Positions 4,005-52,511 of a stretch of DNA of 64,000 nucleotides are shown in pieces. The DNA is from Malacoraja senta (lineage: Eukaryota): positions 7,442,001 to 7,506,000 of the forward strand of contig CM075988.1 in NCBI GenBank assembly GCA_038087875.1, written 5' to 3'. The translations under genes were made by a program, and so were the position numbers. Each line of letters begins with the position of its first letter. The stretch's first letter is position 1. The notes beneath the pieces were generated by a model. The model worked only from the letters and a program-made list of their open reading frames with translations. It was not told the DNA's origin and ran no database searches.

Positions 4005-4365
4005 AGTGCATTTACCCAATCTATTTCTCTCATGATCTTACACACCTCCATAAGATCACTCCTCATCCTGCGTTCCAAGGAATAAGCCTGCTCAGTCTCT
4101 CCCTATATCTCAAGCCCTCGAGTCCTGGCAACATCCTCATAAATCATCTCTGCACCCTTTCCAGCTCAGCAATATCTTTCCTATAAAAGGGTGACCAAAA
4201 TTGAACATAATACTTAATTTATATACTCCACAACTTCAGCTGCCGAAGCACAGTCTGGAATTATCTAGGCCTCACCAATGTCTTGTACAACTGTAACATG
4301 AGCTCCCACCTTCTATTCTCCTGGATCTCTCTGCTCTGCAACACTCCCCAGAGCCCTGCCATTCA
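4005..4365 (-). mobile_element. Old CR1-type LINE fragment
   Basis: gggtgaccaaaattgaaca...tact and cctggcaacatcct...aaatc match reverse complement of the YCVQFWSP / QRRFTR region of the CR1 at 43173. Confidence 0.6.
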
Positions 4366-6874: not shown

Positions 6875-9398
6875 TTTTTTTTATTTTTTTTTTAATTTTT
6901 ATTTATTAGAAGTACATTACATCACAGCCACATACATTAATACTCGTCATTTATATCTTCTTACAATTAATGTACTCCCTTTATTTTTTTTTTTACGCTA
7001 AAGAAAGAAAAGATTGAAAGAGAGAAGAAAGTGAAGGAAAAAGTGCAAGTGTAGAAAAGTGTAGAAAATGTAACAACAAAAAAAAAAAAGGACGAGGACC
7101 CTATGAAAGCGAAATTAAAAACAAAAAAAAAAAAGAGTTAAGAAATAGGCCCTAAGAAAAGAAAAGAGAGAGAGAAAAAAAGAAAAACAAATGTTTTTTT
7201 TTTTGAGCATCACGTAAATAGGACATACCAACTCTTCAACTATCATCCCCCCTTACCCGACCTCAATTTTTTATTTTTTTAAAGTACTTTTGCACCCTAT
7301 GTTTGTAATAATTCTATAAATGCAGACCACGTCAGGTGGAAGTGATCTGGTTTACCTGCTAGGAGGAGTCTAATCTCTTCAAGGTGTAGTGTTTCAAACA
7401 TATTTGAAATCCACATATTTATAGTTGGTATTGGAGCCTTCTTCCAAAATTTTAGAATTAGCTTTTTTCCAGTTATTAACCCATAATCCATTAATTTCTT
7501 TTGAAACACATTTAGTTCTGGATCATCTTCCGTTATACCGAAGATAATCCATTCTGCTTTGGGTATCAGTCTTGTTTTAAATAACTTTGTAAAGATTTCA
7601 AAAATTTCATTCCAAAATTTTTGAATTTTTGTACAGAAGACAAATGAGTGCGCTATAGTTGCTTCTTGGGATTGACATTTATCACAAATAGATGATACGT
7701 TTGGGAAAATTTTATGAATTTTAGTTTTCGAATAATATAATCTATGTAAAATTTTAAATTGTATTAAAGTGTGTCTTACATTAATCGAGCATTTATGTAC
7801 TTTTAATAAGTATTCATTCCAACTTTCCTTTGAAATTTTAATAGCTAACTCTTGTTCCCAGTCTCTTCTGATACCCTCCGTAGATGGTATTTGTACATTT
7901 AAGATAATATTGTACAAATATGATATTAAGTTTGCTGATTCCGCTTTTGTCTGCATTGCCTCGTCCAGTACATCTGCTGGGTTATTATGATGATCTTTTA
8001 TATATTTTTTCAAATAGTCGCATATTTGAAAGTATTTAAAATATTGATTATTTCCGAGTTTATATTTTATTTGTAATTGTTGAAATGAAAGTAATTTTCC
8101 AGTTTCATACAAGTCACCAAGCGTTTTAATTCCTAGTCTATCCCATTGTGTATAAGCTTTATCTATAATAGAAGGACTAAACGAAGGGTTATTGACTATA
8201 GGTAATAAAAGTGATAAGTTTCTTAATTTTAAATTTTGTTTTATTTGTTTCCAAATACGGATTGTACTATGAATAATTGGGTTCTTATTATAGTTTATGT
8301 TATTCAATTTCATTGGAGAGAGGAGGATCGCTCCAATGTTTCTAGAGGAGCAATCCTCTTTCTCCATTACAATCCAGTCTACTTGCTGGGCGGAGTTATC
8401 CATCAGTTGAATCATGTTTTTAATATTTACTGACCAATAATAATACATAAAATTGGGTAGTGCTAGACCCCCCAATACTTTAGATTTATTCAGATGGGTT
8501 TTTTGTATTCTATGTGATTTATAGTCCCATATAAAATTAGTGATATCTGAGTCGAGTTTTTTAAAAAACTTCTTAGGTAAGTATATAGGAATTGATTGAA
8601 ATAGGTATAAAATTTGTGGTAAAAAGATCATTTTTATTGCGTTTATTCGGCCTATTAAAGACATCGGAAGCGTTTTCCAGAATTTAATTAATGTATTCAG
8701 TTTATTAAGTAGGGGGTCAAAATTTGCCCTGAGCATACCTTGATATGCTCTGGTAATTTCGATTCCCAAATATTTAAATTTTTCTGTAGCTATTTTAAAA
8801 GGGAATTTTAAAAGATGTGTTGAATCTTTCGGTTTTATTGACATAATTTCACTTTTATTCCAATTTATTCTATATCCAGAAAAAGATCCGAAGTCTTCAA
8901 TTAAATTTAATATATTTGGTATAGTGATTTGAGGTTTTGTAATATACAATAATATATCATCCGCGTATAAAGATATTTTATTATATGAGTCTTTAGTATT
9001 ATATCCATGAATATCAGGGTGTATTCTAATTTTTTCTGCTAGCGGTTCAATAATGAGAGCAAACAGCTGTGGTGATAATGAGCATCCTTGTCTATTTCCC
9101 CTTGATAGTTGAAATTTCGAGGATAATATGTTATTAGTAAGTATTCTAGCTGTAGGTTTGTTATATAGTAACTTAATCCATAAAATAAAATTCTCTCCCA
9201 GTTGAAATTTTTGTAATACTTTATCCATATAATTCCATTCTACTTGATCAAATGCTTTTTCAGCATCCAGCGAAATAATTGATAATTCTTGATCTTCAGA
9301 TTTGTGTGAGTGCATTATGTTGAGTAAACGTCTCATATTATTAGAAGAGTATCTCTTAGGGATAAACCCTGTCTGATCTGGGTTTATTAATTTACTAA
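6875..9398 (-). mobile_element. Young 5'-truncated L1-clade LINE
   Basis: Poly(T) at left end, ORF2 fragment, perfect 16-bp TSD tgtccaaacgtctctt at 6859-6874 and 9399-9414; inserted in an older CR1 fragment (about 6745-6874 plus 9399-9690). Confidence 0.95.
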
Positions 9399-9399
9399 T
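7297..9399 (-). pseudogene. L1 ORF2 fragment (RT domain to C-terminal CCHC), 700 uninterrupted codons, no endonuclease
   Basis: Motifs DQTGFIP, SLDAEKAFD, RQGCSLSP, LYADD, CDKC-x8-H-x4-C. First 28 aa of the tracked ORF (9400-9483) are flanking DNA. Confidence 0.92.
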
Positions 9400-9927
9400 G
9401 TCCAAACGTCTCTTAAATGTTATTATAGCCTCGACCACCAGCTCTGGATGAAAAAGTTGCCTCTTGGGTTCGTATTTAATCATCTCCCTCTCACTTTAAA
9501 CCTATGTCCTCTTGCTTTTGATGCCTCTCCCTTGGGTAAAAAGCCCTGTACATTCACCCTATCTATTTCCCTTATGATTTTATACACCACTACTATAAGA
9601 TCACCCCTCAGCCTCCTGCGCTCCAAGGGACAAAATCCTAGTCTGCCCAACCAGTTTAGCCATTCAAATCCTGGCAACATCCTTATAAAACGATATTGGG
9701 GTTACAGCAATTTATTGGCGGCTTCCAAAGGCAAATTATTTGATATTGTATAGATTTACTTTTATCACGTAAGAAGGGTGAATATTACACATTTTGCTTT
9801 TGCAAATGATCCCAGTACTCTTATCAATGGAGTTTTTCTCAATATAGAATTATAACATCGTCCATGTGGTAAATTATAACAGAGTCCATATGGTAAATGA
9901 GTATGAAGGAACTTGCTTCCACTGAAG

Positions 9928-11499: not shown

Positions 11500-12130
11500 C
11501 TATTATAGGAAAGATGCTGTTAAGCTGGAAAGATTGCAGAGAAGATTTACAATGCAAAGGGCCTACTCTGTAGGGAGAGGTTGGGCAGGTTTTTATTTCT
11601 TGGATCAGACTGGGCAGATGCACAGTATTTTACCCAGATTTGGGGAAATCAAGAACCAGAGGCCATAGGTTTAAGTTGAGAAGGAAATGATTTAATAGGA
11701 ACTTGAGGAGCAACTTTTTCATACAGAGGGTAGTGGGCATATGAGGTAGTTGAGGCAAGTATGATAACAACATTCAAAGCACATTTGGACAGGTACATGG
11801 ATAGGAAAGGTTTAGAGGGAATGCGTCAAATGTAGGCAGGCTTAGTTTAGTTTTGTTTATTGTCATGTGTACCGAGGTACAGTGAAAAGCCTTTGTTGCA
11901 TGTTATCGAGTCAGCGGAAAGACAATACATGATGACAATCGAGGCATTTACAGTGTATAGGTACATGATAAGGGAATAACGTTTAGTGCAAGGTAAAGCC
12001 AATAAAGTCTGATCAAAGATAGTCCGTGGGTCACCAATGAGGTAGATAGTGGGACTAGCGTAAATGGTGCATCTAGCTTGGCATGAGTGAGTTGGGCCGA
12101 AGGGCCTGTTTCCCTGCTGTATGACTCTAA
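11500..12130 (+). mobile_element. CR1/HER1-like LINE 3' end interrupted by a Rex1/Babar-like 3' fragment (11843-12048, minus)
   Basis: Degenerate RKD..KLE..QRRFT coding remnant; resumes after the insert and ends gggccgaagggcctgtttccctgctgtatgactcta, the tail shared with the SINE. Confidence 0.7.
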
Positions 12131-12329: not shown

Positions 12330-12755
12330 AAGATAGAGCTTGAAAACAAGTCCTTTGGCCCACCGAGTCCACACCGACCATCGATTACCCTTTCACACTA
12401 GTTCTATGTTATCCCACATCTTACACACAAGGGGGGATTTAGAGACTAATTCATCTACAATCCTGCATCTCTTTGGGATGTATGTAGGAAGGAATTGCAG
12501 ATGCTGGTTTAAACTGAAGATAGACACAAAATGCTGGAGTAACTCAGCGGGACAGGCAGCATCTCTGGAGAGAAGGAATTCTTTCTCCCCAGAAATGCTG
12601 CCTGCCCCGCTGAGTTGCTCCAGCATTTTGTGTCTTTCGGATGTGTTGGGAATCCCCTGCGGACACAAGGAGAACATGCAAACTCCACGCAGGCGTTGTC
12701 CGAGGTCAGTATCGAACCCGTGTCTCTGGCTCCGCGTGGCAACAGCTCTACCAGC
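12330..12755 (-). mobile_element. HE1-like SINE containing a mini-PLE palindrome (12482-12632) that lost the ribozyme-bearing centre
   Basis: Inverted arms fused at aaggaattctttc; approximate duplication tctttgggatgt (12470-12481) / tctttcggatgt (12633-12644). Confidence 0.75.
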
Positions 12756-14490: not shown

Positions 14491-14712
14491 TGTGCAGGAA
14501 GGAACAGCAGATGCTGGTTTATACCGAAGACACATACAAAGTGTTGGAGTAAGTCAGCGGGTCAGGCAGCATCTCTGAAGAAAAGGTGCAGGCAATGTCT
14601 AGGGTCGGAAACTTTCTTCAGACAGGAAGAGCCTGGAAGAAGAGTTCCAACCGGAAACATCGCCTGTTCCTTTTCTCCGGAGATGCTGCCTGACCCGCCA
14701 AGTTACTCCAGC
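14491..14712. mobile_element. Palindromic mini-PLE, diverged
   Basis: Long arm tgtgcaggaaggaacagcagatgctgg... plus inverted arm ending ttactccagc. Confidence 0.75.
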
Positions 14713-14915
14713 TGTCACCCTTGATTCTTGAAGAATTTCAATTTTGTCACTTGCTAATTTGATATCCCTCAATAATTGCATTCCACTTTCCTTGATTAAT
14801 AGAATGCATTAAATAATTACCTAAAAAAGAATCCCCAAACGTAATTTTCTGTGCTTACCCAGTGCTGGGAGCAGTAAAGAAGAAACTGCTTTTGCTGCCA
14901 TTTGCATCATGCTTG

Positions 14916-18010: not shown

Positions 18011-18524
18011 GGCGGCATTACAACCTATCCCATCTTCAGTCTCTGCAACAAACTCACGCCCAAAACAGTTGTTGTCATGTTTTAATCTAGGTTTAGAAAT
18101 TCTGCACGAAAACAAGCCCTTCGGCCCACTGAGTCCATGGTGACCATCAATCACCCATTCACAGTTGTTCAAGAGTAAAGGTTGTTTAATTGTCATTTGT
18201 ACTGAAACGGAACAATGACATTCTTATTTGCAGCAGCACAACAAGTCTGTAAACAGTGTTCAATAGATAACATAATAAGACAAACAGAAATATAGTTCAA
18301 TAAATAATTAATAATATCAATATTAGTACAACACAAAAGCCTGAAGTCCCTAGTGCAACCAAGACAGTTGGTAGTTTGTATTTTAGTTGGCGTTTGCAGT
18401 GTTCAAGAATGTGCTGGTGGAAAGAAGCTATTCCTGAACCTGATTTTCAGACTCTTGTACCTTCTTATAGGTATATACCTTCTTACACCTCTTATACCTT
18501 CTTCCCGATAGCAGGAGTGAGATG

Positions 18525-18727
18525 TGTAGGAAGGAACTGCAGATGCTGGTTTAAACCGAAGATAGACACAGAGAGCTGGAACAACTCAGCGGGACAGGCA
18601 GCATCTCTGGAGAGAAGGAATAGGTGACGTTTTGTGTCGAGACCCTTCTTCAGTCTGAAGGAAGTCACCCATTCCTTCTCTCCAGAGATGCTGCCTGTCC
18701 CGCTGAGTTACTCCAACCTTTTGTGTC
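18525..18727. mobile_element. Palindromic mini-PLE inside a Rex1/Babar-like fragment
   Basis: Perfect 16-bp duplication tagcaggagtgagatg at 18509-18524 and 18728-18743. Confidence 0.85.
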
Positions 18728-19761
18728 TAGCAGGAGTGAGATGACAGCTTGGCCAGGGTGGTATCGGTACTTCATCCCACTTTCCAATCCACACCCTACA
18801 CACCAGAGGGAACTTTGCACAGGCCAATTAACTTACAAACTCGCATGTCTTTGTGATGTGGGAGCAAACCCGAACAGCCGGAGGAATCCCACATGGTCAC
18901 AGGAAGAATGCACAAACTCCACACAGGCAGCACCTGAGGTCATGATCAAATCCGAGTCTGTGGAGCTGTGAGGCAGCAACACCACCAGCTGCGGCCTTCA
19001 GCTGCCTCCTAAGCCTGGCGATGATGGATTTGCATCTCCCCCTGAGAATGATAAAGGAATTTTTTAAGGCCATCACATGTACAAGTGTGACTGTTAGTCG
19101 CATATAATACCGAACTAAAGCCCTGTGCCAGATGGAAGGGTTTGAGAAGAAATTAACGTTGGTGTGGTCTAAAGTCCTAACCTTTCCATCACCCCAGTTC
19201 TATAATATGAAGAATTGAATTCTGGACACTGGTCCTACTACGATTTGGGTTTAGAGCATCAGGTGAGAATTTTAATTTTTAAATAATAAAGGAGAGAGGC
19301 TAATTAATGGCAAGGCAGACAATTGTGCGTTCCATAACTTTAAGCACTTTTTCATTGAATGTCAGAACGGCACAGCTACTGTGCTGGATGGACTAAGTCT
19401 GACGCTCATGGTTTCACTCACAGCTGTTAGCTTAAATTGTAGAAGCAGTTTACGAGGTTCTCACTTTAACAACTGCTGCAGGAGCTCCTGCAAACATTTG
19501 ATATTCTCTGCGTATTGCAGTGTAGCAGCAGGTGTGAATAACATAAGAAATATGGTGCTTTTGGTTATTTGCTGCTTGAGTGGCGCCTGCAAAAGGCAGG
19601 GTGACAGTGGCACCCACTGGGCCTTCTCCACCTTCAAACTCTCAATTGTGAAACCTCTCTCTTTTTGAGTTCCATTTTAGGCTCTAACATCTTATCAAAT
19701 CCAGACTTGTGCTCTTTTAGATCCCCGTGTCTACCCTGTTCTGTCCCTGTGTCTATCCTTG

Positions 19762-20064: not shown

Positions 20065-20236
20065 TCACTTTCCTATTGTGACTTTCAGTTTTATTGCTGC
20101 CATACTAGACTGATCCTGATTGATAGTCAAATTGGAAATATTAAATTTGAGAGGCAAAACAGTACATTCACAATGGGTAGACACAAAATGCTGGAGTAAC
20201 TCAGCGGGACAGGCAGCATCTCTGGAGAGAAGGAAT

Positions 20237-20271
20237 GGGTGACGTTTCGGGGCCAGACCCTTCTTCAGACT
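20237..20271 (-). ncRNA. Minimal type I hammerhead ribozyme motif in mini-PLE (20178-20312)
   Basis: Minus strand reads agt-CTGAAGA-a-ggg tctggc ccc-GAAA-cGTC-accc. Confidence 0.6.
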
Positions 20272-20809
20272 ATCTTCGATTTAAACCAACATCTGCAGTT
20301 CTTTCCTGCACATTCCCTCTATACTTTACTCATTCAACTATCAGCCCAGATGCCTCTTCAATGTAAATATTTACTCTTCCTGTCTCCTTGATCTTCTCTA
20401 GCAGATCAAACCCGATGCCAACTATCTTTGCGTGGAAAAATTTACCCCACTAATCCCCTTTAAATCACCTTCCTCTAGCCTGAGAGCTGTGCCCTCTAGT
20501 TTTAGACACCCATGCCATGGGATACAGACCATGCCTGACTACCCGTCTATGCCTCACAAAATGTATCTATCTTTGTCATGTCACCTCCTTTGTTCAGGGA
20601 AAGTGGACTTTAGACTTTTAGACTTTAGAGATACAGCAGCGAAACAGGGCCTTTGTCTCACCGAGCAGAACCCCTGGAGAAAACCCACATATGGGGAGAA
20701 CGTACAAACTCCATATAGATAGCCCCTGCAATCCGGATCGAACTGGGGTCAGTGGTGCTGCAAGGCAGCAACTCTACTGCTGCACCATTGTGCCGCCCAA
20801 GTCGACCCA

Positions 20810-23103: not shown

Positions 23104-23429
23104 GGGCAGTCACGGTGGCGCAGCGGTAGAGTTACTGCCTTACAGCGAATGCAGCGCCAGAGACCAGGGTTCGATCCTGACTATGGGTGCTGTCTGTACA
23201 GAGTTTGTACATTCTCCCCGTGATCTGCATTGGTTTTCTCCGCGATCTTTAGTTTCCTCCCACACTCCAAAGACCTACAGGTTTGGAGGGTTAATTGGCT
23301 CGGTAAATGTTAAAATTGTCCCTAGTGGGTGTAGGATAGTGTTAATGTGCGGGGATCGCTGGTCGGCGCGGACCCGGTGGGCCGAAGGGCCTGTTTCCGC
23401 GCTGTATCTCTAAACTCTTAACTAAACTA
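23104..23429 (+). mobile_element. HE1-like SINE, full length
   Basis: tggcgcagcgg A-box, ggttcgatcc B-box, core, tail. Confidence 0.88.
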
Positions 23430-23488
23430 TTCCTTATTTATACATGTGCTAGTCCCACTGCAGACACAAAGTACCTTTGATATTGCAA

Positions 23489-23621
23489 TGTGTAAGAAGG
23501 AACTGCAGATGCTGGTTTAAACCGAAGAAAGACACAAAAAGCTGGAGTAACTCAGCGGGACAGGCAGCATCTCTGGAGAGAAGGAATGGGTGATGTTTCG
23601 GGTCGAGACCCTTCTTCAGAC
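23489..23621 (-). mobile_element. Mini-PLE full single arm with hammerhead motif (AUC variant, 23588-23621)
   Basis: Minus strand gtCTGAAGAagggtctcgacccGAAAcATCaccc. Confidence 0.8.
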
Positions 23622-26658: not shown

Positions 26659-26973
26659 TGGGGCTGTCCCACTGTACGAGCTAATTCAAGAGTTCTCCTG
26701 AGTTTCCCCTGATTCGAACTCGGAGAATTACGGTAATAGCCGCTTGTAGGTACTCGGGGCTCTCGTGGACATTTTTCAACATGTTGAAAAATCTTCACGA
26801 GTCTTCACAAGCTTACCGCGTTTCCCAAGTACCTGCCGTTAGCGTTACGAGCCGCTAAGAGAGGTCCCGAGCTCTGACGTACCCGCTACGTACATTCTAC
26901 GTGCTTACCACGAGTTTGATTTTTTTTTTCTCGGGAGAGCTCTTGAATTAGCTCATACAGTGGGACAGCCGCT
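26659..26973. mobile_element. PIF/Harbinger-type MITE
   Basis: TIR ggggctgtcccactgtacgagctaattcaagag / ctcttgaattagctcatacagtgggacagccgc; TAA at 26656-26658 and 26974-26976. Confidence 0.82.
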
Positions 26974-27496
26974 TAATTCAGCGGGACAGGCAGCATCTCT
27001 GGAGAGAAGGAATGGGTGATGTTTCGGGTCGAGACCCAAGGGTCTCGACCCGAAACATCACCCATTCCTTTTCTCCAGAAACTCTATCACTGGGTATGTA
27101 CAGTGCTTATGTTGTATTTGCAATCTGCTGCTGAATTTAGAAACATATCAGCTATCATTCAGAGTATTCAACTGATCTAAAAATACTGCTGCACTTCGTT
27201 GAAGAGAAAGGTTCTCATTTATCCCCTAATCAATGGTGCAGATGTTATCAGCTCACTCTTGCATTGTTGCTAGTGTGTAGTTGCTGTGTGTGAATTGACT
27301 GGCTTGTTTTTTTCTATTATGGTCAAACACACGGGTTTCTCACAGTTATGCGATACAAGTTCTTTCTTTGGTCAATTGATTTGAAAGGAGCCAAAATACA
27401 AAATTTCACAAATTCAAACAAGTGTCATAAGAGTTTTTATTGTTATGTCCCCCGAAACAGAACAATCTTACGTGCACCATAACAGGTTTGTAAACA

Positions 27497-27629
27497 GACT
27501 GAAGAAGGGTCTCGACCTGAAACGTCAGCCATTCCTTCTCTCCTGAGATGTTGCCTGTCCCGCTGAATTACTCCAGCATTTTGTGTCTATCTTTGATTTA
27601 AACCAGCATCTGCAGTTCTTTCTAACACA
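27497..27629 (+). mobile_element. Mini-PLE single arm with hammerhead motif at 27499-27526
   Basis: CTGAAGAagggtctcgacctGAAAcGTC followed by the family body. Confidence 0.8.
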
Positions 27630-29682: not shown

Positions 29683-30319
29683 TGTACCCTATGGTTTGTA
29701 TTCCCATAGGGAATATGCTGCTATAATATATATGAATATAGGGAATTACCTATAGGGAATATAGAGAACATATAGTATATGCTTCTCTGATGTACAACAC
29801 TAAATTATTTTTAATTATTTTGAGGTGGGATCTGGGCATTATTTCCTGTGCCTAATTGCCCTTGGGAAGGTGGCATTGGGTTACCATGTTGAACCACTGC
29901 ACTCCCCCTGTACGGTTGTTAACACAACAGAGTCATGCAGTGGTTAAGTTACTAGTCTAGCAGCCTGTAACATGAATTTGAATCCCACCATGACAGCTGT
30001 GGAATTTAAATTTGGATAACTAAAAAAATCTTTAAAAAATCTGTTATTAAAGCCAGTCTCAGTAATGTTACGCATAAAGCTCTTGCATTTTTTATTTTTA
30101 AAAAACTGATGTGGTGCAGACTATTGTCTTTTGGGAAATGATCTCTGTCAACCTTAGCTGATTTGGACAATATCTGACTCTAGTCTCATGAATGTGTTTG
30201 ATTCTTGAATGTTTCTTGGCTTTCATTCATATGCTACTGGAATGAATGTTGGTTAGCTATGGCCATTGTGGGAGCAAGACTGTACCTATTTTGTCCTTGC
30301 CTGTCACCTTCATATATTG

Positions 30320-30744
30320 GGTAGGAAGGAACTGCAGATGCAGGTTTAAACCGAAGATAGACACAAAATGCTGGAGTAACTCAGCTGGACAGGCAGCCTC
30401 TCTGGAGAGAAGGAATGGGTGACGTTTTGGGTTGAGACCCTTCTTCAGACTGAATAAAGGGCCTGTCCCACTTTCACGACTTAATTCTTTCATCCCGACC
30501 ATTTTTTTACTCGTGGACATTTTTTATCGGGCTGAAAAAAATTAGCCCCGACTTACCTGATGCCACGAGTACCTACGGCTAGCATAACGAGCTGCTACGA
30601 TATATCTACGAACTCGTAATACCTCCTACGGACTCGTTACGAACATTCTGCGAGTTTGAATCAGGGGAAAACTCGGGAGAATTCTGAATTACCTTGTGAA
30701 AGTGGGACAGGCCCTTAAGGGTCTGTCCTGCTGAGTTACTCCAG
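30320..30744. mobile_element. Mini-PLE palindrome interrupted by a MITE
   Basis: 12-bp duplication cttcatatattg at 30308-30319 and 30745-30756. Confidence 0.8.
30458..30715. mobile_element. PIF/Harbinger-type MITE
   Basis: Perfect 20-bp TIR agggcctgtcccactttcac / gtgaaagtgggacaggccct; TAA at 30455-30457 and 30716-30718; internal blocks shared with 26659-26973. Confidence 0.85.
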
Positions 30745-32110: not shown

Positions 32111-32772
32111 GATCACTTATGACTTGAATCTCCTTGCATGAAACAATCGATCAGGAATTTTGGAAGTGATGTGGAGGGTGTTTGGGAGAGAGAGAGTGAT
32201 TTGGCAGTGCAGGAAGAAAGGGCAGGAAATGTGACTGGAATTGCTCTCCCTGGTGCTGGCATGGTCTCGATTTGGCCGAGAGTCTGCTTCCTATATGACA
32301 ATAAAAGATCCTCGTCTCTAGATTCAACGCTCGACACATCAACTCCTTCCAAACCCTTCTCCATTCACGTGCTGCACTGTGTGACTTGCACATCTGTTCC
32401 CAAGGTGCTTCATTCATTATCTTGCTGTTTTTAATTTGTGTATCTATAAACCTTAACCCGGCCAACAACTCTCGACTTACTTGCCTAATAAATTACTGTT
32501 CTTCCGGTAGTTCAATTGTGAATTCATCTCTCGTCACCCATTGCTCTCTAGCATTAAGCCAGACCTTAAGCCTTTCCCTTTCAGCCTTGCTCACTTATTT
32601 AAGTCCCTACTTAACAAAATCAAGCCTCTTTTCAACTTTGTGCATAGTTTTGTGGAACTTGACTCCGCAAAGTGCTTTTATACTTTATAGTTCGGGCTGT
32701 TACGTAAATATTGTTCAGTCTAATTTTCACCCATAAATCATCTGTCAGTATTCTAATGTTCATTGATTTCTG

Positions 32773-33010
32773 GGATAGACACAAAAAGCTGGAGTAAATC
32801 AGCGGGACAGGCAGCATCTCTGGAGAGAAGGAATGGGTGACGTTTCGGGTCGAGACCCTTCTTCAGACCCTTCTCCAGTCTGAACAAGGGTCTCGACCCG
32901 AAACGTCACCCATTCCTTCTCTCCAGAGATGCTGCCTGTCCCGCTGAGTTACTCCAGCATTTTGTGTCTACGGTTTAAACCAGCATCTGCATTTCCCTTC
33001 CAACACATAA
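32773..33010. mobile_element. Young, near-perfect palindromic mini-PLE
   Basis: About 90-bp inverted arms nearly identical; tgatttctg on both sides (32764-32772, 33011-33019). Confidence 0.85.
32835..32870 (-). ncRNA. Minimal type I hammerhead ribozyme motif, intact core
   Basis: Minus strand gggt-CTGAAGA-a-gggtc tc gaccc-GAAA-cGTC-accc: 4-bp helix I, helix II, palindromic ACGT in place of helix III. Confidence 0.7.
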
Positions 33011-33354
33011 TGATTTCTGAGAGTTGATCTTTGTATCAATCTCATGACATAAAGTGAGACTCAATCTTCTCAGGGCTGTATTAGTCGAACACCCAAAGTG
33101 TTGTTGCTAAGGAACCATTATTCACTTTTACCTAGACAGGGCAGTCTAGACAGTGATACCCCAATGTTTTCTCTTTCTAGCTGCATTGAAGCCATGTTAT
33201 CTAGTGGCATGGTACTCCTAGTACTGAGTTAAAAGTATTGGTCAAAGCCCAGCCAATTTCTCCTATGTTTCGGGCAATTAAATTGCTTGGCTGTTGAGTA
33301 AAGGATAATCTTGCTGGGAGTGGTGCACTGTGTTGGTTCAGCTGGCAGCACACA

Positions 33355-33630
33355 GACTTTAGAGACACAGCATGGAAACAGGCCATTCGGCCCACACCAA
33401 ATCCACACCACTAGTACTATCCTACACACTTGGGACAATTTACGATTTTATCAAAGCCAATTGATCTACAAACCTTTGTCTTTGGAGCCTGGGAGGAAAC
33501 CAGAGCACACGGACAAAACCCATGGTGTCACAGGGAGAGCGTACAAACTCCACACATAGCACCCGTGGTCGGGATTGAACCCGGATCTCTGACGCTGCAA
33601 GGCAGAAAACTACCGCTGTGCCACCATGCC
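33355..33630 (-). mobile_element. HE1-like SINE
   Basis: Reverse complement of consensus. Confidence 0.8.
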
Positions 33631-34714: not shown

Positions 34715-35240
34715 TTCCAGGTGCGGCAGAGGTTCACCTGCACCTCCTCCAACCTCATCTGTTGCATCCGCTGCTCTAGATGTCAGCTGCTCTACATCGG
34801 TGAGACCAAGCGTAGGCTTGGCGATCGCTTCGCCCAACACCTCCGCTCGGTTCGCAATAACCAACCTGATCTCCCGATGGCTCAGCACTTCAACTCCCCC
34901 TCCCATTCCGAATCCGACCTTTCTGTCCTAGGCCTGCTCCATGGCCAGAGTGAGGACCACCATAAATTGGAGGAGCAGCACCTCATATTTCGCTTGGGCA
35001 GTTTGCACCCCAGCGGTATGAACATTGACTTCTCTAATTTCAGGTAGTCCCTACTTTCTCCTCACCCTCTCAGCTCTTCCTCAGCCCACTGGCTCCACCT
35101 CTTCCTTTCTTCTTCCCGCCCCCCTCCCACCCACCCACACATTAGTCTGAAGAAGGGTTTCGACCCAAAACTTTACCTATTTCCTTCGCTCCATAGATGC
35201 TGCTTTACCCGCTGAGTTTCTCCAGCGCTTTTGTCTACCT
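34715..35240 (+). mobile_element. Penelope-like element 3' fragment: GIY-YIG endonuclease (to stop at 35047) plus terminal repeat
   Basis: FTCTSSNLICCIRCSRCQLLYIGETKRRLGDRFAQH...AQHFNSPSH...KLEEQHLI...GMN; then ctgaagaagggtttcgaccc...gatgctgc...gctgagtttctccagc; tttatcca at 34699-34706 and 35241-35248. Confidence 0.9.
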
Positions 35241-36432
35241 TTTATCCATGAACTCATGTGTTCATAAAAACGCACCTGCCAGATACTTGATGAAGTTGTG
35301 GGAATACATTTTTTAAACTATGTAAGCTTTTGTTTCCGAGAGATCCACTCCAGGCTTGATATGTCTGCTTTCGTATACTCCTGGAGCTTTGATCTGATGT
35401 CTTGCAGCCTGCTACTATTCCCACATGCACGCAGAGACTTTTCCCCCCATCTCCAGAACTCTCTCAGCTGATAAGCAAGATTGCGGGAAGTAAATAATAC
35501 TTTGATAAGGCTGCTGTGATTTCTATTCGAGTTGATCGCGGTAGTGCGCTGGAGATCAACATTTAATTCCTAGAGATTTCCGGATAATCATGCAGACTAT
35601 CAGGGGATTGCCATCTATATCTCTCCCAGCAAGATGCTTCAATCCACATGCAGGGTTGAATTTCCACATCAGGTAACCGCTGTTAAACTGTGGGAATACT
35701 GAATGCCTTAAAGGGGAAAGGAGAAGCATATGCCTGTGTTTTCACACAGAGGAACTTCAATCACCAAGAATTTCAGGCTTGGATTCTAGTCTGCATTTAG
35801 AGACAAATAGAACTTGGATTCTAGCCCGCATTGATGGACACATAGAATACAGTGGGAGCAAGAGCTAGAATAAGAGTTGGAAAGAGAGGAAGACTGATCA
35901 GCATTCTTTCTCCAGAATGCAGTACATTTACTCTGCCTGATTACTGAGGGTATATGGATGGATGTTGGGTGGAAATGCAGATTCTTGATTAGTAAGGGTT
36001 TCAAAGGTTATGGGGAGAAGGCAGGGAATGGGGTTGAGAGGGAAAGATAGATCAGCCATGATTGAATGGCTGAGTAGACTTGATGGGTTGAATGGCCTAA
36101 TTCTGGTCCTGTGACTTATGAAGGTTGGCTTTAACTGATGTTCCACAATGGATGGACAACCACTGATATTGACAAATAAGATGATTCGCATTTTGGACAT
36201 TATGGTATCCAACTTCTCCAACTTCTAGATGAGGAATCTGCAGTGAAATCTCTGATTCTGCAACAGTGCACACAACAGTATAAATGGTAAGAATTTTATT
36301 GTGAATGGTTATTAAGGATTGTTTTTTTTTTTGATACATTGCTTCGTCTTCATATAGATGACTGCAATTCCAATTCTGTGGTTTGGAGGAACTCCTGAAG
36401 TGCTTTTATTTATCTGGGTGCTTTTTATTGGT

Positions 36433-36635
36433 AAGAAAGAACTGCAGATGCTGGTTTAAATTGAAGGTAGACAAATGCTGGACGACCAGCGGGTGAGGCA
36501 ACATCTCTGGAGAGAAGGAATGGGCGACGTTTCGGGTCTGAAGAAGGGTCTCGACCCGAAACGTCACCCATTCCTTCTCTCCAGTGATGCTGCCTCTCCC
36601 GCTGAGTTACTCCAACATTTTGTGTCTACCTTTGG
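36433..36635. mobile_element. Palindromic mini-PLE
   Basis: 11-bp duplication tttttattggt at 36422-36432 and 36636-36646. Confidence 0.82.
36534..36569 (+). ncRNA. Minimal type I hammerhead ribozyme motif, intact core; predicted cleavage after 36565
   Basis: gggt-CTGAAGA-a-gggtc tc gaccc-GAAA-cGTC-accc. Confidence 0.7.
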
Positions 36636-36955
36636 TTTTTATTGGTGTTCCTTGGACTTGGAACATGGTCCATATAACAGTACAACACAGCAACTATATC
36701 TGTACTCAACAGTATGTCAAGTTAAAGTAATCATCTCTGCCTGCACATGATCCAGATTCCTCCACCCCATGTATGTCTGTGCCTATCTAAAAAACATTTA
36801 AATGCCACAATCATATCTGCCTCCCCCACCACCCTCAGTATGTAAACAAAAAAAATTGCCCTGTACATCTCCTTCATACTTTGCCCCTCTCACCTAAAAG
36901 CTCTGCCATTGTATAAATTGCTATGCCATTGTATTGAACTTGCATTTATAGAGAA

Positions 36956-40310: not shown

Positions 40311-41266
40311 GACAATAGGTGCAGGAGTAGGCCATTCGGCCCTTCGAACCAGCACCGCCATTCAATGTGATCATGCTGATCATCCCCAATCAGTACCCCG
40401 TTCCTGCATTCTCCCCATATCCCCTGACTCCGCTATCTTTAAGAGCCCTATCTAGCTCTCTCTTGAAAGTATCCAGAGAACTGGCCTCCACTGCCCTCTG
40501 AGGCAGAGAATTCCACAGACTCACAACTCTCTTTGAGAAAAAGTGTTTCCTCGTCTCCTTTCGAAATGGCTTACCCTTTGTTCTTAAACTGTGGCGCCTG
40601 GTTCTGGACTCCCCCAACATCGGGAACATGTTTCCTGCCTCTAGCGTGTCCAAACCCTTAACAATCTTATATGTTTCAATAAGATATCCTCTCATCCTTC
40701 TAAACTCCAGAGTGTACAAGCCCAACCACTCCATTCTCTCAGCATATGATAGTCCCGCCATCCAGGGAATTAACCTTGTAAACCTACGTTGCACTCCCTC
40801 AATAGCAAGAATGTCCTTCCTCAAATTAGGGGACCAAAACTGCACACAATACTCCAGCTGTGATCTCACTAGGGCCCTGTACAGCTGCAGAAGGACCTCT
40901 TTGCTCCTATACTCAACTCCTCTTGTTATAACGGCCAACATGCCATTCGCTTTCTTCACTGCCTGCTGTACCTGCATGCTTACTTTCAGTGACTGATGTA
41001 CAAGGACACCCACGTCTCGTTGTACTTCCCCTTTTCCTAACTTGACACCATTCAGATAATAATCTTCCTTCCTGTTTTTGATACCAAAGTGGATAACCTC
41101 ACATTTATCCACATTAAACTTAATCTGCCATGCATCTGCCCACTCCCCCAACCTGTCCAAGTCACCCTGCATTCTCATAGTATCCTCCTCACAGTTCACA
41201 CTGCCACCCAGCTTTGTGTCTTCAAATTTGCTAATGTTACTTGAATCCCTTCATCCAAATCATTGA
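40311..41266 (-). mobile_element. CR1-type LINE 3' fragment (269-aa open remnant)
   Basis: QGDLDRLGEWA...YCVQFWSP...GYGENAGTGY*, highly similar to the 43173 element. Confidence 0.92.
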
Positions 41267-43171
41267 CAGAAGTATCAAATGCTTGAGGTTAAACACCATT
41301 TAAAATTTGGAAAAGAACAAGAACCTCCTGAGCATGTCATTGGTAGCAGAAATTAGCTTCCAATTGACCTCGGGATGTCTCAATTAAACTGTAATTGATC
41401 AGGGTGTTAGTTCTAGGTCTTGTAGAAAACAGTAAGGTTTCACGTAACCGCATCTTTAGCAGCGGGATAATGGAATGCGCACTTAATGATATAAAGTACC
41501 TATCTTTATGTTCCTTCCAAGGCCAAGGAGATCTAGTATTACATTTACAAAGAACCCTTCTATTTCTGGGTCTTGAAGGAAATTGGTCCTGTACACCACT
41601 CCTCATGTTTCCATGCACTGTGCGAGAAGAGAAATTTCCTATTAGGATGTTTTAAAATTGATTATCCAAATCAATTCTCAATGTTATTTAATATACAGAT
41701 GTTCCCCGATTTATGATGCTTCGACTTACGATATTTCGACTTTGCGATAAAGAATAACAATCATAATTGAGCAGACAGGGAGATTGCTAATGAAAAGTGG
41801 ACAAGATTCTCGCTGTTCAGTAGATTTGGTAATTGAAAAACAACCTCTGTTTTATTTCAGGAGTCGTTCAGAAATCATCATCAGCATCTTTAAATGCTTT
41901 GCTTTCAAATGCTTTTAGTAAAAATGCCAAGATGAAAAACATTTTTCTGAAACAAGGAAAAATAAAATTAGTTCTTTTAAACGTTCTACTCTCCAATCCC
42001 ATGAGCCTAAACAGTTTAATGCTGATTGATATTGTTTATTTAATAATTGTATTTTGTGATCTCGAAGGGATATTGTTCCATTTTTTGCAGTGTAATAATA
42101 TGGTCCTACAGCATGGAAACAGGCCCTTTAACCCAACTTGCCCACACCGATCAACATGTCCCATCTTCATTAGTCCCACCTGCCTGCATTTATTGCAAAA
42201 AAAGACAGAGTGCTGGAGTAATTGAGTGGGCCCAACAGCATTTCTGGAGAACACTGATCGGTGGAGCAACTGCAAAGATTGCTGGCTTGTTTTCCACTCC
42301 GTATTGCTCTTTCCTCAACTGGACTGATAATTCATCAAACTCTCCTCCAGTGCATTCGCTGCTGCATTTATGAAGCGTTTCTGGGAGGAGAAAAGACACA
42401 TTAGCTGTGAGCCATTTTCTGAAGGAGATGGATGTTATTGGTGTTAAAGATTAGATGTGGAGGTCACCTAATGTTTCGTCGTCTCTGATTTGTGTTTTCA
42501 TGAATGAATTGCAAGAAACCTAAATATTGATCTCGTAAATAATAAAGCACAGCAATTTACCATCATGAATAATGTTTTTTTTTAATTAAAAATGAGAACT
42601 TGAAGATTAAGTGTCTTGGAGCTGGTGGGTCATGTCTAAAGTGTCCTTAGTGGCTCCAAGATGTATAATAGCTGTTTTCAGCCATAATGTAATCTATTGA
42701 ATTTGTTGATTATAGATCAACTGAAGTCATATGGGTAAAGATTAGATTCAAAAGAGATGTTGTCGCTGTGCTGGGTGTGTTTTACTGCACAAACAAAGTC
42801 ACCAGGTGATAAGGGGGATTGATAAGTAGGCAGATGTTCGACAGATGTGGTAAAGATAGGATTATTTTAGGGGATTTCAATTCCCAAATATTAATTGGGA
42901 TTGTCTCCGTGTAGATGGTTTCAGGGGGGGCGGGGGTATTTGGGAGTTCTGAGTTTTGTCCAGACAAGCTTTTTAACACTATATTCAGTGCCCTCCATAA
43001 TGTTTGGGACAAAAACCCTTTATTTAATTATTTGCCTCTGTACTCCACAATTTGAGATTTGTAATAGAAAAAAAATCACATGTGTTTAAAGTGCACATTG
43101 TCAGATATTAATAAAGGCCATTTTTATACATTTTGGTTTCACCATGTAGAAATTACAGCAGTGTTTATACA

Positions 43172-45893
43172 TATGATATAGTTGGGATCACGGAGACATG
43201 GCTCCAGGGTGACCAAGGCTGGGAGCTGAACATCCAGGGATATTCAATATTCAGGAGGGATAGAGAGAAAGGAAAAGGAGGTGGGGTAGCGTTGCTGGTT
43301 AGAGAGGAGATTAACGTAGTGGAAAGGAAGGACATTAGCTTGGAGGATGTGGAATCGGTATGGGTAGAGCTGCGAAACACTAAGGGGCAGAAAACGCTGG
43401 TGGGTGTTGTGTACAGGCCACCTAACAGTAGTAGTGAAGTTGGGGATGGCATCAAACAGGAAATTAGAAACGCGTGCAACAAAGGCAAAACAGTTATAAT
43501 GGGTGACTTCAATCTACATATAGATTGGGTGAATCAAATTGGCAGGGGTGCTGAGGAAGAGGATTTCTTGGAATGTATGCGGGATAGTTATCTAAACCAA
43601 CATGTTAGAGGAACCAACGAGAGAGCAGGCTATTCTAGACTGGGTATTGAGTAATGAGGAAGGGTTAGTTAGCAGTCTTGTTGTGCGTGCCCCCTTGGGC
43701 AAGAGTGACCATAATATGGTTGAGTTCTTCATTAGGATGGAGAGTGACATTGTTAATTCAGAAACAATGGTTCTGAACTTAAAGAAAGGTAACTTTGAGG
43801 GTATGAGACGTGAATTGGCCAAGATTGACTGGCAATTAGTTCTAAAAGGGTTGACGGTGGATATGCAATGGAAGGCATTTAAAGACTGCATGGTTGAACA
43901 ACAAAAATTGTTCATCCCAGTTTGGCAAAAGAATAAATCAGGGAAGGTAGTGCATCCATGGATAACAAGGGAAATCAGGGATAGTATCAAAGCAAAAGAT
44001 GATGCGTACAAATTAGCCAGAAAAAGCAGCATACCAGAGGACTGGGAGAAATTCAGAGACCAGCAGAGGAGGACAAAGGGCTTAATTAGGAAAGGGAAAA
44101 TAGATTATGAAAGAAAACTGGCAGGGAACATAAAAACTGACTGCAAAAGTTTTTATAGATATGTGAAGAGAAAGAGATTAGTTAAAACAAATGTAGGTCC
44201 CTTGCAGTCAGAAACAGGTGAATTGATCATGGGGAACAAGGATATGGCGGACCAATTGAATAACTACTTTGGTTCCGTCTTCACTAAGGAAGACATAAAT
44301 AATCTGCCGGAAATAGCAGGGGACCGTGGGTCAAAGGAGATGGAGGAACTGAGTGAAATCCAGGTTAGTCGGGAACTGGTGTTGGGTAAATTGAATGGAT
44401 TAAAGGCCGATAAATCACCAGGGCCAGATAGGCTGCATTCCAGAGTACTTAAGGAAGTAGCTCCAGAAATAGTGGATGCATTAGTGATAATTTTTCAAAA
44501 CTCTTTAGATTCTGGAGTAGTTCCTGAGGATTGGAGGGTAGCAAACGTAACCCCACTTTTTAAGAAGGGAGGGAGAGAGAAAACGGGGAATTACAGACCA
44601 GTTAGTCTAACATCGGTAATGGGGAAACTGCTAGAGTCAGTTATTAAAGATGGGATAGCAGCACATTTGGAAAGTGGTGAAATCATTGGACAAAGTCAGC
44701 ATGGATTTACGAAAGGTAAATCATGTCTGACGAATCTTATAGAATTTTTCGAGGATGTAACTAGTAGAGTGGATAGGGGAGAACCAGTGGATGTGTTGTA
44801 TCTGGACTTTCAGAAGGCTTTCGACAAGGTCCCACATAAGAGATTAGTATACAAACTTAAAGCACATGGTATTGGGGGTTCAGTATTGATGTGGATAGAG
44901 AACTGGCTGGCAAACAGGAAGCAAAGAGTAGGAGTAAACGGGTCCTTTTCACAATGGCAGGCAGTGACCAGTGGGGTACCGCAAGGCTCAGTGCTGGGAC
45001 CCCAGCTATTTACAATTTATATTAATGAACTGGATGAGGGAATTGAAGGCAACATCTCCAAGTTTGCGGATGACACTAAGCTGGGGGGCAGTGTTAGCTG
45101 TGAGGAGGATGCTAGGAGACTGCAAGGTGACTTGGATAGGCTGGGTGAGTGGGCAAATGTTTGGCAGATGCAGTATAATGTGGATAAATGTGAGGTTATC
45201 CACTTTGGTGGCAAAAACAGGAAAGCAGACTATTATCTAAATGGTGGCCGATTAGGAAAAGGGGAGATGCAGCGAGACCTGGGTGTCATGGTACACCAGT
45301 CATTGAAAGTAGGCATGCAGGTGCAGCAGGCAGTGAAGAAAGCAAATGGTATGTTAGCTTTCATAGCAAAAGGATTTGAGTATAGGAGCAGGGAGGTTCT
45401 ACTGCAGTTGTACAGGGTCTTGGTGAGACCACACCTGGAGTATTGCGTACAGTTTTGGTCTCCAAAACTGAGGAAGGACATTATTGCCAGAAAGGGAGTG
45501 CAGAGAAGGTTCACCAGACTGATTCCTGGGATGTCAGGACTTTCATATGAAGAAACACTGGATAGACTCGGCTTATACTCGCTAGAATTTAGGAGATTGA
45601 GAGGGAATCTTATAGAAACTTACAAAATTCTTATGGGGTTGGACAGGCTAGATGCAGGAAGATTGTTCCCGATGTTGGGGAAGTCCAGGACAAGGGGTCA
45701 CAGCTTAAGGATAAGATGGAAATCCTTTAAGACCGAGATGAAAAAAACATTTCTCACACAGAGAGTGGTGAATCTCTGGAACTCTCTGCCACAGAGGGTA
45801 GTTGAGGCCAGTTCATTGGCTATATTTAAGAGGGAGTTAGATGTGGCTAAAGGGATCAGGGGGTATGGAGAGAAGGCAGGTACGGGATACTGA
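43172..45893 (+). pseudogene. CR1 ORF2 (endonuclease plus RT) with one +1 frameshift at about 43605-43606
   Basis: ORFs 43133-43654 and 43602-45893 join as LNQHV/EEPTREQAILD if one T of catgttagag is removed. Confidence 0.9.
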
Positions 45894-46056: not shown

Positions 46057-47098
46057 TTAGTATTTTGTTGCATATCCTTTGCATGCAATGACAGCTTGAA
46101 GTCTGCGATTCATAGACATCACCAGTTGCTGGTTGTCTTCTCAGGTGATGCTCTGCCAGGCCTGTATTGTAGCCACCTTTAGCTTATGCTTGGTTTGGGG
46201 GCTAGTCCCCTTCAGTTTTCTCTTCAGCATATAAAAGGCATGCTCAATTGGGTTGAGATTGGGTGATTGACTTGGCCACTCAAGAATTGACCATTTTTTA
46301 GCTTTGAAAAACTCCTTTGTTGCTTTAGCAGTATGTTTGGGATCATTGTCTTGCTGTAGAATGAACCGATGAGTCAATGAGTTTTGAGGTTATTGTTTGA
46401 ACTTGAACAGATAGGATGTGTCTATACACTTCAGAATTCATTATGCTACTACCATCAGCAGTTGTATCATCAATGAAAATAAGTGAGCCAGTACCTTCAG
46501 CAGCCATACATGCCCAGGCCATAACACCCCCACCATCGTGTTTCACAGATGTGGTGGTATGCTTTGGATCATGGGCAGTTCCTTCTCTCCCCCATACTTT
46601 GCTCTTGCCATCACTCTGATATAAGTTAATCTTCGTCTCTTTTGTCCACAAGACCTTTTTCCAGAACGGTGGTTCCTCTTTTAAATACTTCTTGGCAAAC
46701 TGTAACCTGGCCATTCTATTTTTGCGGCTAACCAGTGGTTTGCATCTTGCAGTGTAGCCTCTGTATTTCTGTTCATGAAGTCTTTTACGGACAGTGGTCA
46801 TTGACAAATCCACACCCGACTCATGTAAAGTGTTTCTGATCTGTCGGACAGGTGTTTGGGATTTTTTTCCCTTTATTATAGAGATAATTCTTCTGTCATC
46901 AGCTGTGAAGGTCTTCCTTGGCCTGCCAGTTCCTTTACAATTAGTAAGCTCACCAGTGCTCTCTTTCTTCTTAATGATGTTCCAAACAGTTGATTTTGGT
47001 AATCCTAAGTTTTGGCTGATGTCTCTAACAGTCTTATTCTTGTTTCTCCATCTCATAATGGCTTCTTTGCAATTCATTGGCACAACTTTGGTCTTCAT
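46057..47098 (-). pseudogene. Tc1 DD34E transposase pseudogene
   Basis: ATG at 47098; GRPRK, WTKETK (first catalytic D lost), frameshift near 46370, QQDND...SPNLNPIE (34 residues D to E), premature TGA at 46141-46143, ends KGYATKY*. Confidence 0.93.
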
Positions 47099-47486
47099 GT
47101 TGATAAACAGCAATAAAAGTTTCCAAAGGTGATGGAAAGACTAGGTGCCGAGAGCTCTCTTTTACCTGGCTTTTAAGGAGGCAATTATTACACACCTGAG
47201 CAATTACAAACACCTGTGAAGCCATATGTCCCAAACATTATGGTGCCCTGAAATGGGGGGGACTATATATAAACACTGTTGTAATTTTTACATGGTGAAA
47301 CCAAAATGTATAAAAATGGCCTTTATTAAAATCTGACAATGTGTACTTTAACCACATGTGATTTTTTTTCTATTACAAATCTCAGATTGTGGAGTACAAA
47401 CAAATAAATGATGGGTCTTTGTCCCAAACATTATGGAGGGCACTGTATACATTGATTAATGAGAGAAGGAGCATTCCTAGACCTTG

Positions 47487-52021: not shown

Positions 52022-52150
52022 GTGTAGGAAGGAACAGCAGATGCTGGTTTACACAGAAGATAGACACAAAATGCAGGAGTAACTCAGCGGGACAGGCGGC
52101 ATCTGTGGATAGAAGGAATGGGTGACGTTTCGGGTCGAGACTTCTTCAGA
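52022..52150 (-). mobile_element. Mini-PLE full single arm; further diverged copies at 51477-51595, 52306-52495, 55272-55372, 55465-55587, 58440-58680
   Basis: gtgtaggaaggaacagcagatgctgg...ggtgacgtttcgggtcgagacttcttcaga. Confidence 0.8.
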
Positions 52151-52511
52151 TCCAAAGGTGCTGTCACCAGAATCTTAAGAAAGGATTCCAGCAATTTTCT
52201 GATAATTAATTTTCGGCCAATTGGTTTGTGGTTCCCTATCTTCTTTTCACTGTTCTTTTTCTTGAATAGTGGTGTTTCACTGGCCAGTTTCAAACAAATT
52301 GAGACTGTAGAAACAAGGAACTGCAAGATGCTGGTTTGCAAAGAAGGACATAAAGTGCTAGAATAACAGTGGATCAGGCAGCATCTCCGGAGAACATGGA
52401 TAGGTGACGTTTTGATCATCAACGGGTTTTAGGACCTAAGACGTCACCTATCCACATTCTCCAGAGATGCTGCTTGAGTTACTCTAGCACTAGGTGTCCA
52501 ATTTAGACTGT

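What the first reader, a model, noticed from the sequence alone, without database searches (positions are those of the whole stretch)
32773..33010. High-copy non-coding mini-element carrying a minimal hammerhead ribozyme, built as a two-ribozyme palindrome
Seen: a 90-135 bp unit recurs at about 25-30 loci in 64 kb. One end reads CTGAAGA-A-GGGTC-TC-GACCC-GAAA-CGTC-ACCC; the core is intact at 32835-32870(-), 36534-36569(+), 20237-20271(-), 27499-27526(+) and 23588-23621(-, AUC). Helix II variants keep pairing (gggtcccaaccc, gggtttcggccc). Many loci are head-to-head inverted dimers with a motif on each strand (here the plus-strand core is mutated to CTGAACA). Known: CUGANGA/GAAA/NUH is the hammerhead core; minimal type I hammerheads with a palindromic helix III occur in Penelope-like terminal repeats and are thought to act as dimers; an extra A after A9 is tolerated in a natural viroid hammerhead (CChMVd). 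Inference: a retrozyme-like, non-autonomous family that became nearly as abundant as the main SINE in this window. I cannot tell whether this family is already catalogued.
Basis: partly seen in the sequence, partly recalled or inferred. Interest (0 to 1): 0.85.

Follow-up and report, generated by a model that had tools for sequence, protein, structure and literature searches.

The report
Penelope-element ends carrying minimal hammerheads
The short repeat is real and very abundant, but it is the cut-off end of an ordinary Penelope-like retrotransposon of a shark or ray, a class already known to carry such minimal hammerhead ribozymes, and its back-to-back pairs cannot work as a two-ribozyme unit.

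Summary
The repeat is real: 43 arms at 34 loci in the window and about 0.9 million copies, 4.6% of the genome. It is not a separate retrozyme family. It is the pseudo-LTR end of a Neptune-type Penelope-like element (PLE): 30 of 30 GIY-YIG loci carry it downstream, it flanks a full RT-endonuclease ORF, and one window copy keeps its endonuclease (34715-35044). In four subfamilies, short, inverted and long copies share consensus and age. The minimal hammerhead fits the published PLE type, and helix I covaries across distant relatives. Head-to-head pairs put the cores on opposite strands and fold as one hairpin. They are single insertions with target duplications and a tail on one arm only (39 of 46). 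Apparently undescribed: the scale, and 5' ends piling up just before the core, not at the cleavage site. Cleavage itself was not tested. Interest 0.3.

The parts
32764..32772 (+). left target-site duplication, 9 bp
   Evidence: identical to 33011-33019
32773..32868 (-). inverted arm: pLTR unit positions 1-96, no tail; intact minimal hammerhead core 32866-32839, predicted cleavage between 32839 and 32838
32867..32878 (-). junction: imperfect 12-nt duplication of the first bases of the core; supplies the non-native GGGT upstream of the minus-strand core
   Evidence: read directly from the sequence
32876..33010 (+). direct arm: native CAGT, core with G8C change (CTGAACA), body and ~40-nt tail
33011..33019 (+). 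right target-site duplication, 9 bp
34715..35044 (+). C-terminal GIY-YIG endonuclease part of a longer, 5'-truncated copy of the element (older subfamily)
   Evidence: 85% identity to P0001, E 5e-55; Pfam GIY-YIG E 0.005, below the cut-off
35045..35242 (+). pyrimidine-rich 3' UTR and the unit (35145-35242) ending that longer copy
36431..36638 (.). head-to-head pair joined at a GGGTC microhomology; intact core on +; 11-bp flanking duplication
18523..18731 (.). head-to-head pair, tail on one arm, 16-bp flanking duplication
20175..20312 (.). head-to-head pair; the plus arm is tail only (positions 89-133)
12483..12638 (.). head-to-head pair in which both arms lack the ribozyme (start at position 35)
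14491..14715 (.). head-to-head pair, diverged
26973..27081 (.). short head-to-head pair, both cores truncated
52312..52501 (.). head-to-head pair, diverged
23489..23621 (-). solo full 133-nt unit with tail (ACAU at helix III)
27498..27629 (+). solo full unit with tail
30318..30450 (-). solo full unit with tail
52022..52150 (-). solo full unit with tail

Best explanation
The unit is the terminal 95-133 nt of the pseudo-LTR of a Neptune-type Penelope-like retrotransposon in a cartilaginous fish. Shown: in a full-length element it stands both ahead of the ORF and about 190 nt behind the endonuclease stop; short copies are separate insertions with 7-16 bp target duplications; their 3' ends fall at two places (about +95 and +130). 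Inferred from the anole enzyme: the RT-endonuclease nicks target DNA and starts reverse transcription at those two internal sites of uncleaved RNA; priming from both target strands, one at each site, gives head-to-head pairs with one tail. Least certain (about 50%): most cDNAs stop within a few bases upstream of the core because the transcript starts there (conserved initiator-like YCAGT), so priming on the 5' copy of the unit runs off the RNA end after 95-133 nt. The short copies are dead by-products. The ribozyme is selected in the source elements, where it probably cleaves weakly, as a dimer or with the element's protein.
For: 30 of 30 best GIY-YIG loci carry the unit downstream on the same strand, 26 at 160-225 nt (one is the query locus, two are duplicates). 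L180 and L181 are partial tandems pLTR-ORF, and L180 also has the 3' unit. P0001 has an RT part, a CX4CxxC linker and a CCHH GIY-YIG domain, the Neptune signature in PMC8557442; closest named relatives are shark and ray proteins at 60-69%. Four subfamilies each hold long, short and inverted copies with the same consensus and divergence (youngest 0.055/0.049/0.051; commonest 0.080/0.067/0.068). Duplications of 9 bp or more: 12 of 91 short solos (0.6 shuffled), 11 of 46 pairs (0.5 shuffled). One tailed arm in 39 of 46 pairs, 22.9 expected, p 8e-7. Of 238 arms, 113 end at the core edge, 95 inside the unit, 30 run 20 nt or more into the UTR; whole-genome counts fall 65,032 > 49,276 > 38,308 > 29,358 over four bases; the same edge shows in runs of three other organisms. 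12 of 55 metagenome relatives with a mapped endonuclease end carry the same motif 94-152 nt downstream; helix I pairs 1-2 hold in 16 and 17 of 18 rows with 8 and 10 double changes.
Against: No cleavage, transcription start or enzyme activity was measured. The cap-derived extra G that a run-off to a capped end predicts was suggested by small samples (12 of 18; loose-end consensus) but not borne out in the larger one (33 of the first 100, p 0.18), and the 5' edge is spread over several bases with target microhomology. Core positions are invariant among four subfamily consensuses, but the ribozyme span is not significantly less variable than the rest (4 of 32 against 15 of 62, p 0.28). Native helix I has only 2 bp (third pair A-C). 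43 of the 55 relatives showed no motif at that place under my strict descriptor. Neptune is assigned by motifs, not by a tree with named references.
Confidence: 0.85

Rival explanations
1. A non-autonomous, retrozyme- or SINE-like family: short copies, or head-to-tail tandems of the unit, are themselves transcribed, self-cleave as dimers and are mobilised in trans by the Neptune enzyme.
For: Short copies far outnumber ORF-bearing ones (192 arms against about 12 loci with ORF fragments in 399 kb); whole-unit head-to-tail joints exist in DNA of related organisms (4535 back to 4403-4406); animal retrozymes derive from pLTRs (bioRxiv 10.64898/2026.07.22.740005).
Against: Only 6 direct-tandem neighbours among 192 arms; no short-only subfamily; copies span the cleavage site instead of starting at it (2-4 of 100 inverted arms start there, by eye); only 14 of 143 sampled copies keep an intact core.
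Confidence: 0.1
2. Same origin as the best explanation, but the 5' pile-up is an RT stop: the enzyme primes on the 3' copy of the unit and stalls or joins the target just after copying the folded or protein-bound ribozyme; no transcript start is involved.
For: 5' ends spread over several bases, frequent target microhomology, no clear cap G; longer 5'-truncated copies show that priming on the 3' unit occurs.
Against: YCAGT is kept while the UTR upstream differs among subfamilies; initiator-like motifs and an internal promoter are reported for other PLEs (PMC3846280, PMC2377424); the unit folds weakly on its own (z -0.4).
Confidence: 0.4
3. The head-to-head palindrome is a functional two-ribozyme unit.
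For: A core-like motif lies on each strand at many loci.
Against: Dimeric hammerheads need two cores on one RNA (PMC4209133); here they are antisense to each other and form one hairpin; arms are often cut inside the core at scattered microhomologies; the plus core at this locus carries G8C.
Confidence: 0.02
4. The hammerhead likeness is a vestige in this lineage: the core survives for a promoter or protein-binding role and no longer cleaves.
For: Helix I is 2 bp; no pile of read ends at the site in one poly(A) run of a related organism (weak); the anole ribozyme was dispensable for insertion in vitro.
Against: Both helix I pairs are kept in all four subfamilies (U-A or U-G, G-C); a 2-bp helix I is also reported for D. 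virilis Penelope; the anole ribozyme cleaves when protein is added.
Confidence: 0.3

Closest known systems
Minimal hammerheads (min-HHR) in pLTRs of metazoan Penelope-like elements (Cervera and De la Pena 2014, PMC4209133)
   Same: Core, extra nucleotide between 9 and 10.1, G10.1-C11.1, palindromic 15.2-16.2, mostly single truncated copies, some pairs on opposite strands; reported in Xena, Poseidon and Neptune elements of fishes.
   Different: Scale: at least 34,632 exact intact motifs here against about 4,000 in coelacanth and 9,000 in Xenopus (other descriptor, so only roughly comparable). Helix I is 2 bp rather than 4-5. No cartilaginous fish in the main-text parts I read; supplements not seen.
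Neptune clade of endonuclease-containing PLEs (described in PMC8557442)
   Same: RT, CX2-5CxxC linker, CCHH GIY-YIG; heavy 5' truncation, partial tandems, inverted 5' copy, 30-40 bp tail at one end only.
   Different: About half of the arms end within a few bases of the ribozyme edge, giving a near fixed-length 95-133 bp repeat of about 0.9 million copies; I found no description of this.
PAc (Poseidon) of the green anole (Frangieh et al. 2024, PMC11167929)
   Same: Two 3' end points about 40 nt apart downstream of the ribozyme; copies made from uncleaved RNA; both target strands nicked and extended by a predicted dimer.
   Different: Other clade; in PAc the ORF starts inside the ribozyme, here the likely start codon lies about 35 nt after the tail (L180:4569, inferred).
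Animal non-LTR retrozymes (bioRxiv 10.64898/2026.07.22.740005)
   Same: Type I hammerhead, derived from pLTRs, dispersed monomers exist, found in one chondrichthyan.
   Different: Defined by head-to-tail tandems with a ribozyme in each unit; here tandems are rare and head-to-head pairs and solos dominate.

Membership tests
PLE minimal type I hammerhead | CUGANGA / GAAA / UH core in type I order | tested here: met
   34,632 exact genome-wide matches, control 0
PLE minimal type I hammerhead | Extra nucleotide after A9, G10.1-C11.1, helix II of 4 bp or more | tested here: met
   all four subfamily consensuses; helix II counts are partly circular because relatives were selected on it
PLE minimal type I hammerhead | Palindromic ACGU in place of helix III | tested here: met
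   consensus; decays by CpG change in many copies
PLE minimal type I hammerhead | Helix I (4-5 bp typical, 2 bp in D. virilis) | tested here: inconclusive
   2 bp here; those two pairs covary across 18 rows, 0 of 500 shuffles reach the score
PLE minimal type I hammerhead | Self-cleavage as dimer or with protein | not testable with these tools
   no assay; no read-end pile in one poly(A) run
Neptune-clade PLE | Single ORF with RT and C-terminal GIY-YIG | tested here: met
   P0001 itself scores below the Pfam cut-off, relatives pass
Neptune-clade PLE | CX2-5CxxC linker and CCHH motif | tested here: met
   C305, C310, C313; C348, C351, H370, H386; criteria
Neptune-clade PLE | Direct pLTRs by partial tandem, inverted 5' copies, optional tail | tested here: met
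   L180, L181
Neptune-clade PLE | RT phylogeny with named references (Neptune against Nematis) | not tested
   no named reference sequences at hand
Non-LTR retrozyme | Head-to-tail tandems with an intact ribozyme in each unit | tested here: not met
   6 direct neighbours against 37 head-to-head pairs in 192 arms; rare whole-unit tandems in related organisms
Non-LTR retrozyme | Own non-autonomous lineage | tested here: not met
   no short-only subfamily among 129 copies
Non-LTR retrozyme | Circular RNA intermediate | not testable with these tools
   no suitable RNA data
Rfam hammerhead families | Score at the gathering threshold | tested here: not met
   expected for a motif without helix III

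The most novel reading that the evidence does not exclude
The roughly 0.9 million short copies are a genome-wide record of the PLE mechanism: a dimeric enzyme primes both target strands at the two internal start sites of the 5' copy of the unit and runs off the transcript's start, so the element sprays leader-length, ribozyme-bearing cDNAs (a strong-stop-like by-product) over 4-5% of the genome. With tens of thousands of intact cores, many in host transcripts on either strand, the four-base palindrome could let copies cleave as dimers in trans or with the element's protein, which would make this one of the largest ribozyme-motif families in a vertebrate.
Probability: 0.3. Interest if true: 0.55.

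Novelty: new member of a known kind. Interest (0 to 1): 0.3.

Why it matters
As a family it is ordinary: a Neptune-type element with its known ribozyme. Its use is as a very large natural data set for a poorly understood transposition route. The one-tail rule in inverted pairs and the pile-up of 5' ends at the ribozyme edge give direct predictions for the in vitro PLE system, and they explain a SINE-sized repeat that fills several percent of shark and ray genomes without any SINE-like master. It also matters for annotation: these hairpins score as microRNA-like and the ORF is fused into host gene models.

Tried and rejected
Rfam: nothing at the gathering score; only hairpin look-alikes below it. 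Cap-derived G at the 5' junction: looked good in 18 copies, not supported in 100, and some Gs belong to the target duplication; dropped as evidence. A 3' splice site at CAG/TCTG as cause of the 5' edge: rejected, since the edge is spread and target duplications abut it. A splice donor after the tail (L180:4567): more likely the start-codon context; not tested further. Copies starting at the cleavage site: no peak among 100 inverted junctions (by eye; the commonest junction, about 15 of 100, is the GGGTC microhomology also seen at 36534). RNA: no RNA holder listed for this organism; one poly(A) run of a related organism shows equal depth on both strands over the unit and no pile of ends, which is weak either way. 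PDB sequence search with the ORF alignment: no hit. A tree was built but not printed or used. My first subfamily classifier was too loose and was replaced. A larger random sample of the genome could not be had, so the sample stayed at 40 stretches plus the window and its two neighbours. Earlier findings of the scan: none. Dfam and Repbase could not be searched, so whether the family has a catalogue name is open.

Full report
Observation. The repeat is there. A profile built from eight window copies finds 43 arms covering 4,036 bp, at 34 loci against 41 for the main SINE-like family. All five cited cores are present, three with blemishes. In 40 evenly spaced 10-kb stretches (399.4 kb) there are 192 arms covering 4.6% of the bases, which scales to about 0.93 million copies (bootstrap 0.70-1.18 million; near-identical duplicated loci in the assembly may inflate this). 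An exact 18-nt core pattern occurs 65,032 times, its reversed control never; a pattern for the whole intact motif occurs 34,632 times. In the sample only 14 of 143 anchored copies keep an intact core, and the weakest positions are two CpGs. Rfam has no match.

What it is. Some genomic copies continue upstream through a pyrimidine-rich stretch into a GIY-YIG coding region. Searching with that region, 30 of 30 fetched loci have the unit downstream on the same strand, 26 of them 160-225 nt after the stop (one is the query, two are duplicates of each other). The window holds such a copy: 34715-35044 encodes the endonuclease end (85% to P0001) directly ahead of the unit at 35145. L180 is a full partial tandem: pLTR 4253-4535, a 5' region, the RT-endonuclease ORF ending at 7958, UTR, unit 8159-8289, with a short copy nested in the ORF; L181 shows the same 5' junction. 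The protein has the CX4CxxC linker and CCHH motif that mark Neptune in PMC8557442 (passages). Its nearest named relatives are from sharks and rays at 60-69% identity, so the host is a cartilaginous fish (inference).

No separate family. Among 129 copies from unbiased DNA, four subfamilies each contain long (UTR-linked), short and inverted members with the same consensus and similar divergence (one subfamily has only 2 long members). Short solos and inverted pairs are single insertions: duplications of 9 bp or more flank 12 of 91 solos and 11 of 46 pairs, against 0.6 and 0.5 in shuffles; the finding locus has a 9-bp duplication at 32764-32772 and 33011-33019. Direct tandems, which define non-LTR retrozymes (bioRxiv 10.64898/2026.07.22.740005, part 1 of 5 and passages), are rare: 6 against 37 head-to-head pairs.

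The ribozyme. The motif matches the PLE minimal hammerhead in every listed trait (PMC4209133, parts 1-2 of 4). Of 80 metagenome loci encoding relatives, 55 had a mapped endonuclease end, and 12 of these carry the same motif 94-152 nt downstream; L106 has it in both direct repeats. On 6 own and 12 foreign motifs the first two helix I pairs hold in 16 and 17 of 18 rows, with 8 and 10 changes on both sides; no shuffle of 500 reaches the covariation score, and slid controls are far lower. Helix II was a selection criterion for the foreign rows, so its counts are not independent. In this family helix I is only 2 bp (native upstream CAGT). Core positions do not vary among the four subfamily consensuses, but the span is not significantly more conserved than the rest (4 of 32 against 15 of 62, p 0.28).

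The palindrome. The two cores are on opposite strands; the locus folds into one long hairpin (-186 kcal/mol, z -24) that buries either core, and the plus core carries G8C, a change that inactivates the anole PLE ribozyme (PMC11167929, parts 1-2 of 4). Inverted pLTRs with a tail on one side are a known PLE signature. Here the rule can be counted: exactly one arm has the 40-nt tail in 39 of 46 pairs (22.9 expected, p 8e-7).

Mechanism. Shown: two 3' end points (about +95 and +130), target duplications, and copies that span the cleavage site (2-4 of 100 inverted arms begin there). Taken from the anole enzyme: internal priming at two sites that define the tail, use of uncleaved RNA, nicking and extension of both strands by a predicted dimer. 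Inferred: one cDNA from each strand, each from a different site, joined head to head. The 5' ends are unusual: of 238 arms, 113 stop at the core edge, 95 inside the unit and 30 reach 20 nt or more into the UTR; genome counts lose about a fifth per base over the bases before the core, and loose ends pile at L180:4403-4406 in runs of three other organisms (part of that pile is other subfamilies' UTRs). YCAGT is kept across subfamilies whose UTRs differ and resembles an initiator (consensus recalled; initiator-like motifs and an internal promoter in other PLEs: PMC3846280, PMC2377424, passages). I therefore favour, at about even odds, run-off from the 5' copy of the unit to the transcript start. 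Against it, the expected cap G failed in the larger sample (33 of 100, p 0.18), so an RT stop behind the ribozyme remains open.

Novelty. The kind is known. Searches for a description in cartilaginous fishes found none (the whale shark paper only lists Penelope, one passage; the review PMC6155905, passages, adds nothing on sharks), but subscription journals, Dfam, Repbase, the supplements of PMC4209133 (not opened) and those of the bioRxiv preprint (closed; it includes one chondrichthyan) were not seen. What may be new is the copy number, the fixed 5' edge and the measured one-tail rule. Verdict: new member of a known kind, interest 0.3.

Noticed in passing
window 23110-23429 and about 40 other loci: The main SINE-like family (41 merged loci, 7.2 kb); the one tRNA call, 33562-33629, lies at the head of such a copy. 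The name HE1 is recalled, not tested.
   Followed up: partly
window 7297-9495 (-), 40390-41250 (-), 43115-45893 (+), 46343-47140 (-): Long open frames that look like an L1/Tx1-type RT, CR1-type endonuclease and RT, and a Tc1-type transposase; labels are from recalled motifs, not scanned.
   Followed up: no
L001 and L002 (G000:C12:7583577-7586710 and 7463988-7467121): The stretch around window 23488-23621 is repeated exactly about 120 kb away (1,500 of 1,500 bases compared); several other locus pairs are also near-identical (L009/L010, L019/L020, L026/L028, L037/L038, L074/L075): segmental or assembly duplication.
   Followed up: no
P0004, P0008, P0110: Neptune-type ORFs filed under host gene names (a kinase-domain, a chitinase-domain and an XIAP protein) in public annotation: misannotation or exonisation.
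   Followed up: no
P0006 C-terminus: A zebra shark gene model reads on into a peptide that fits a translation of the same hammerhead motif, a hint that the motif sits behind the ORF in sharks too.
   Followed up: partly
L067 sense 7385-7864; L185 sense 2698-3311: Short head-to-tail arrays of partial units (period about 50-67 nt) that mostly lack the ribozyme's 5' half.
   Followed up: no
L180:4535 joined back to 4403-4406 in runs X18 and X20: Whole-unit head-to-tail dimers exist at low frequency in related organisms: the only arrangement with two cores on one strand, and so the best retrozyme candidates.
   Followed up: no
L180:4543-5064, run X24: Beyond the unit, reads over the 5' region are strand-biased (up to 20 to 1) while the unit is even; the library direction is unknown, so sense or antisense cannot be told.
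   Followed up: no
L174:4142 and L106:906, 3972: L174 carries a hammerhead with a real helix III 271 nt behind a more distant ORF; L106 is a complete element between two direct repeats.
   Followed up: partly
window 36484-36608, 26997-27079, 12541-12614: Inverted pairs score as microRNA precursors below threshold: a source of false miRNA calls and possibly of double-stranded RNA.
   Followed up: no
window 11500-11594: Weak U6-like match, 20 bits against a gathering score of 44.
   Followed up: no
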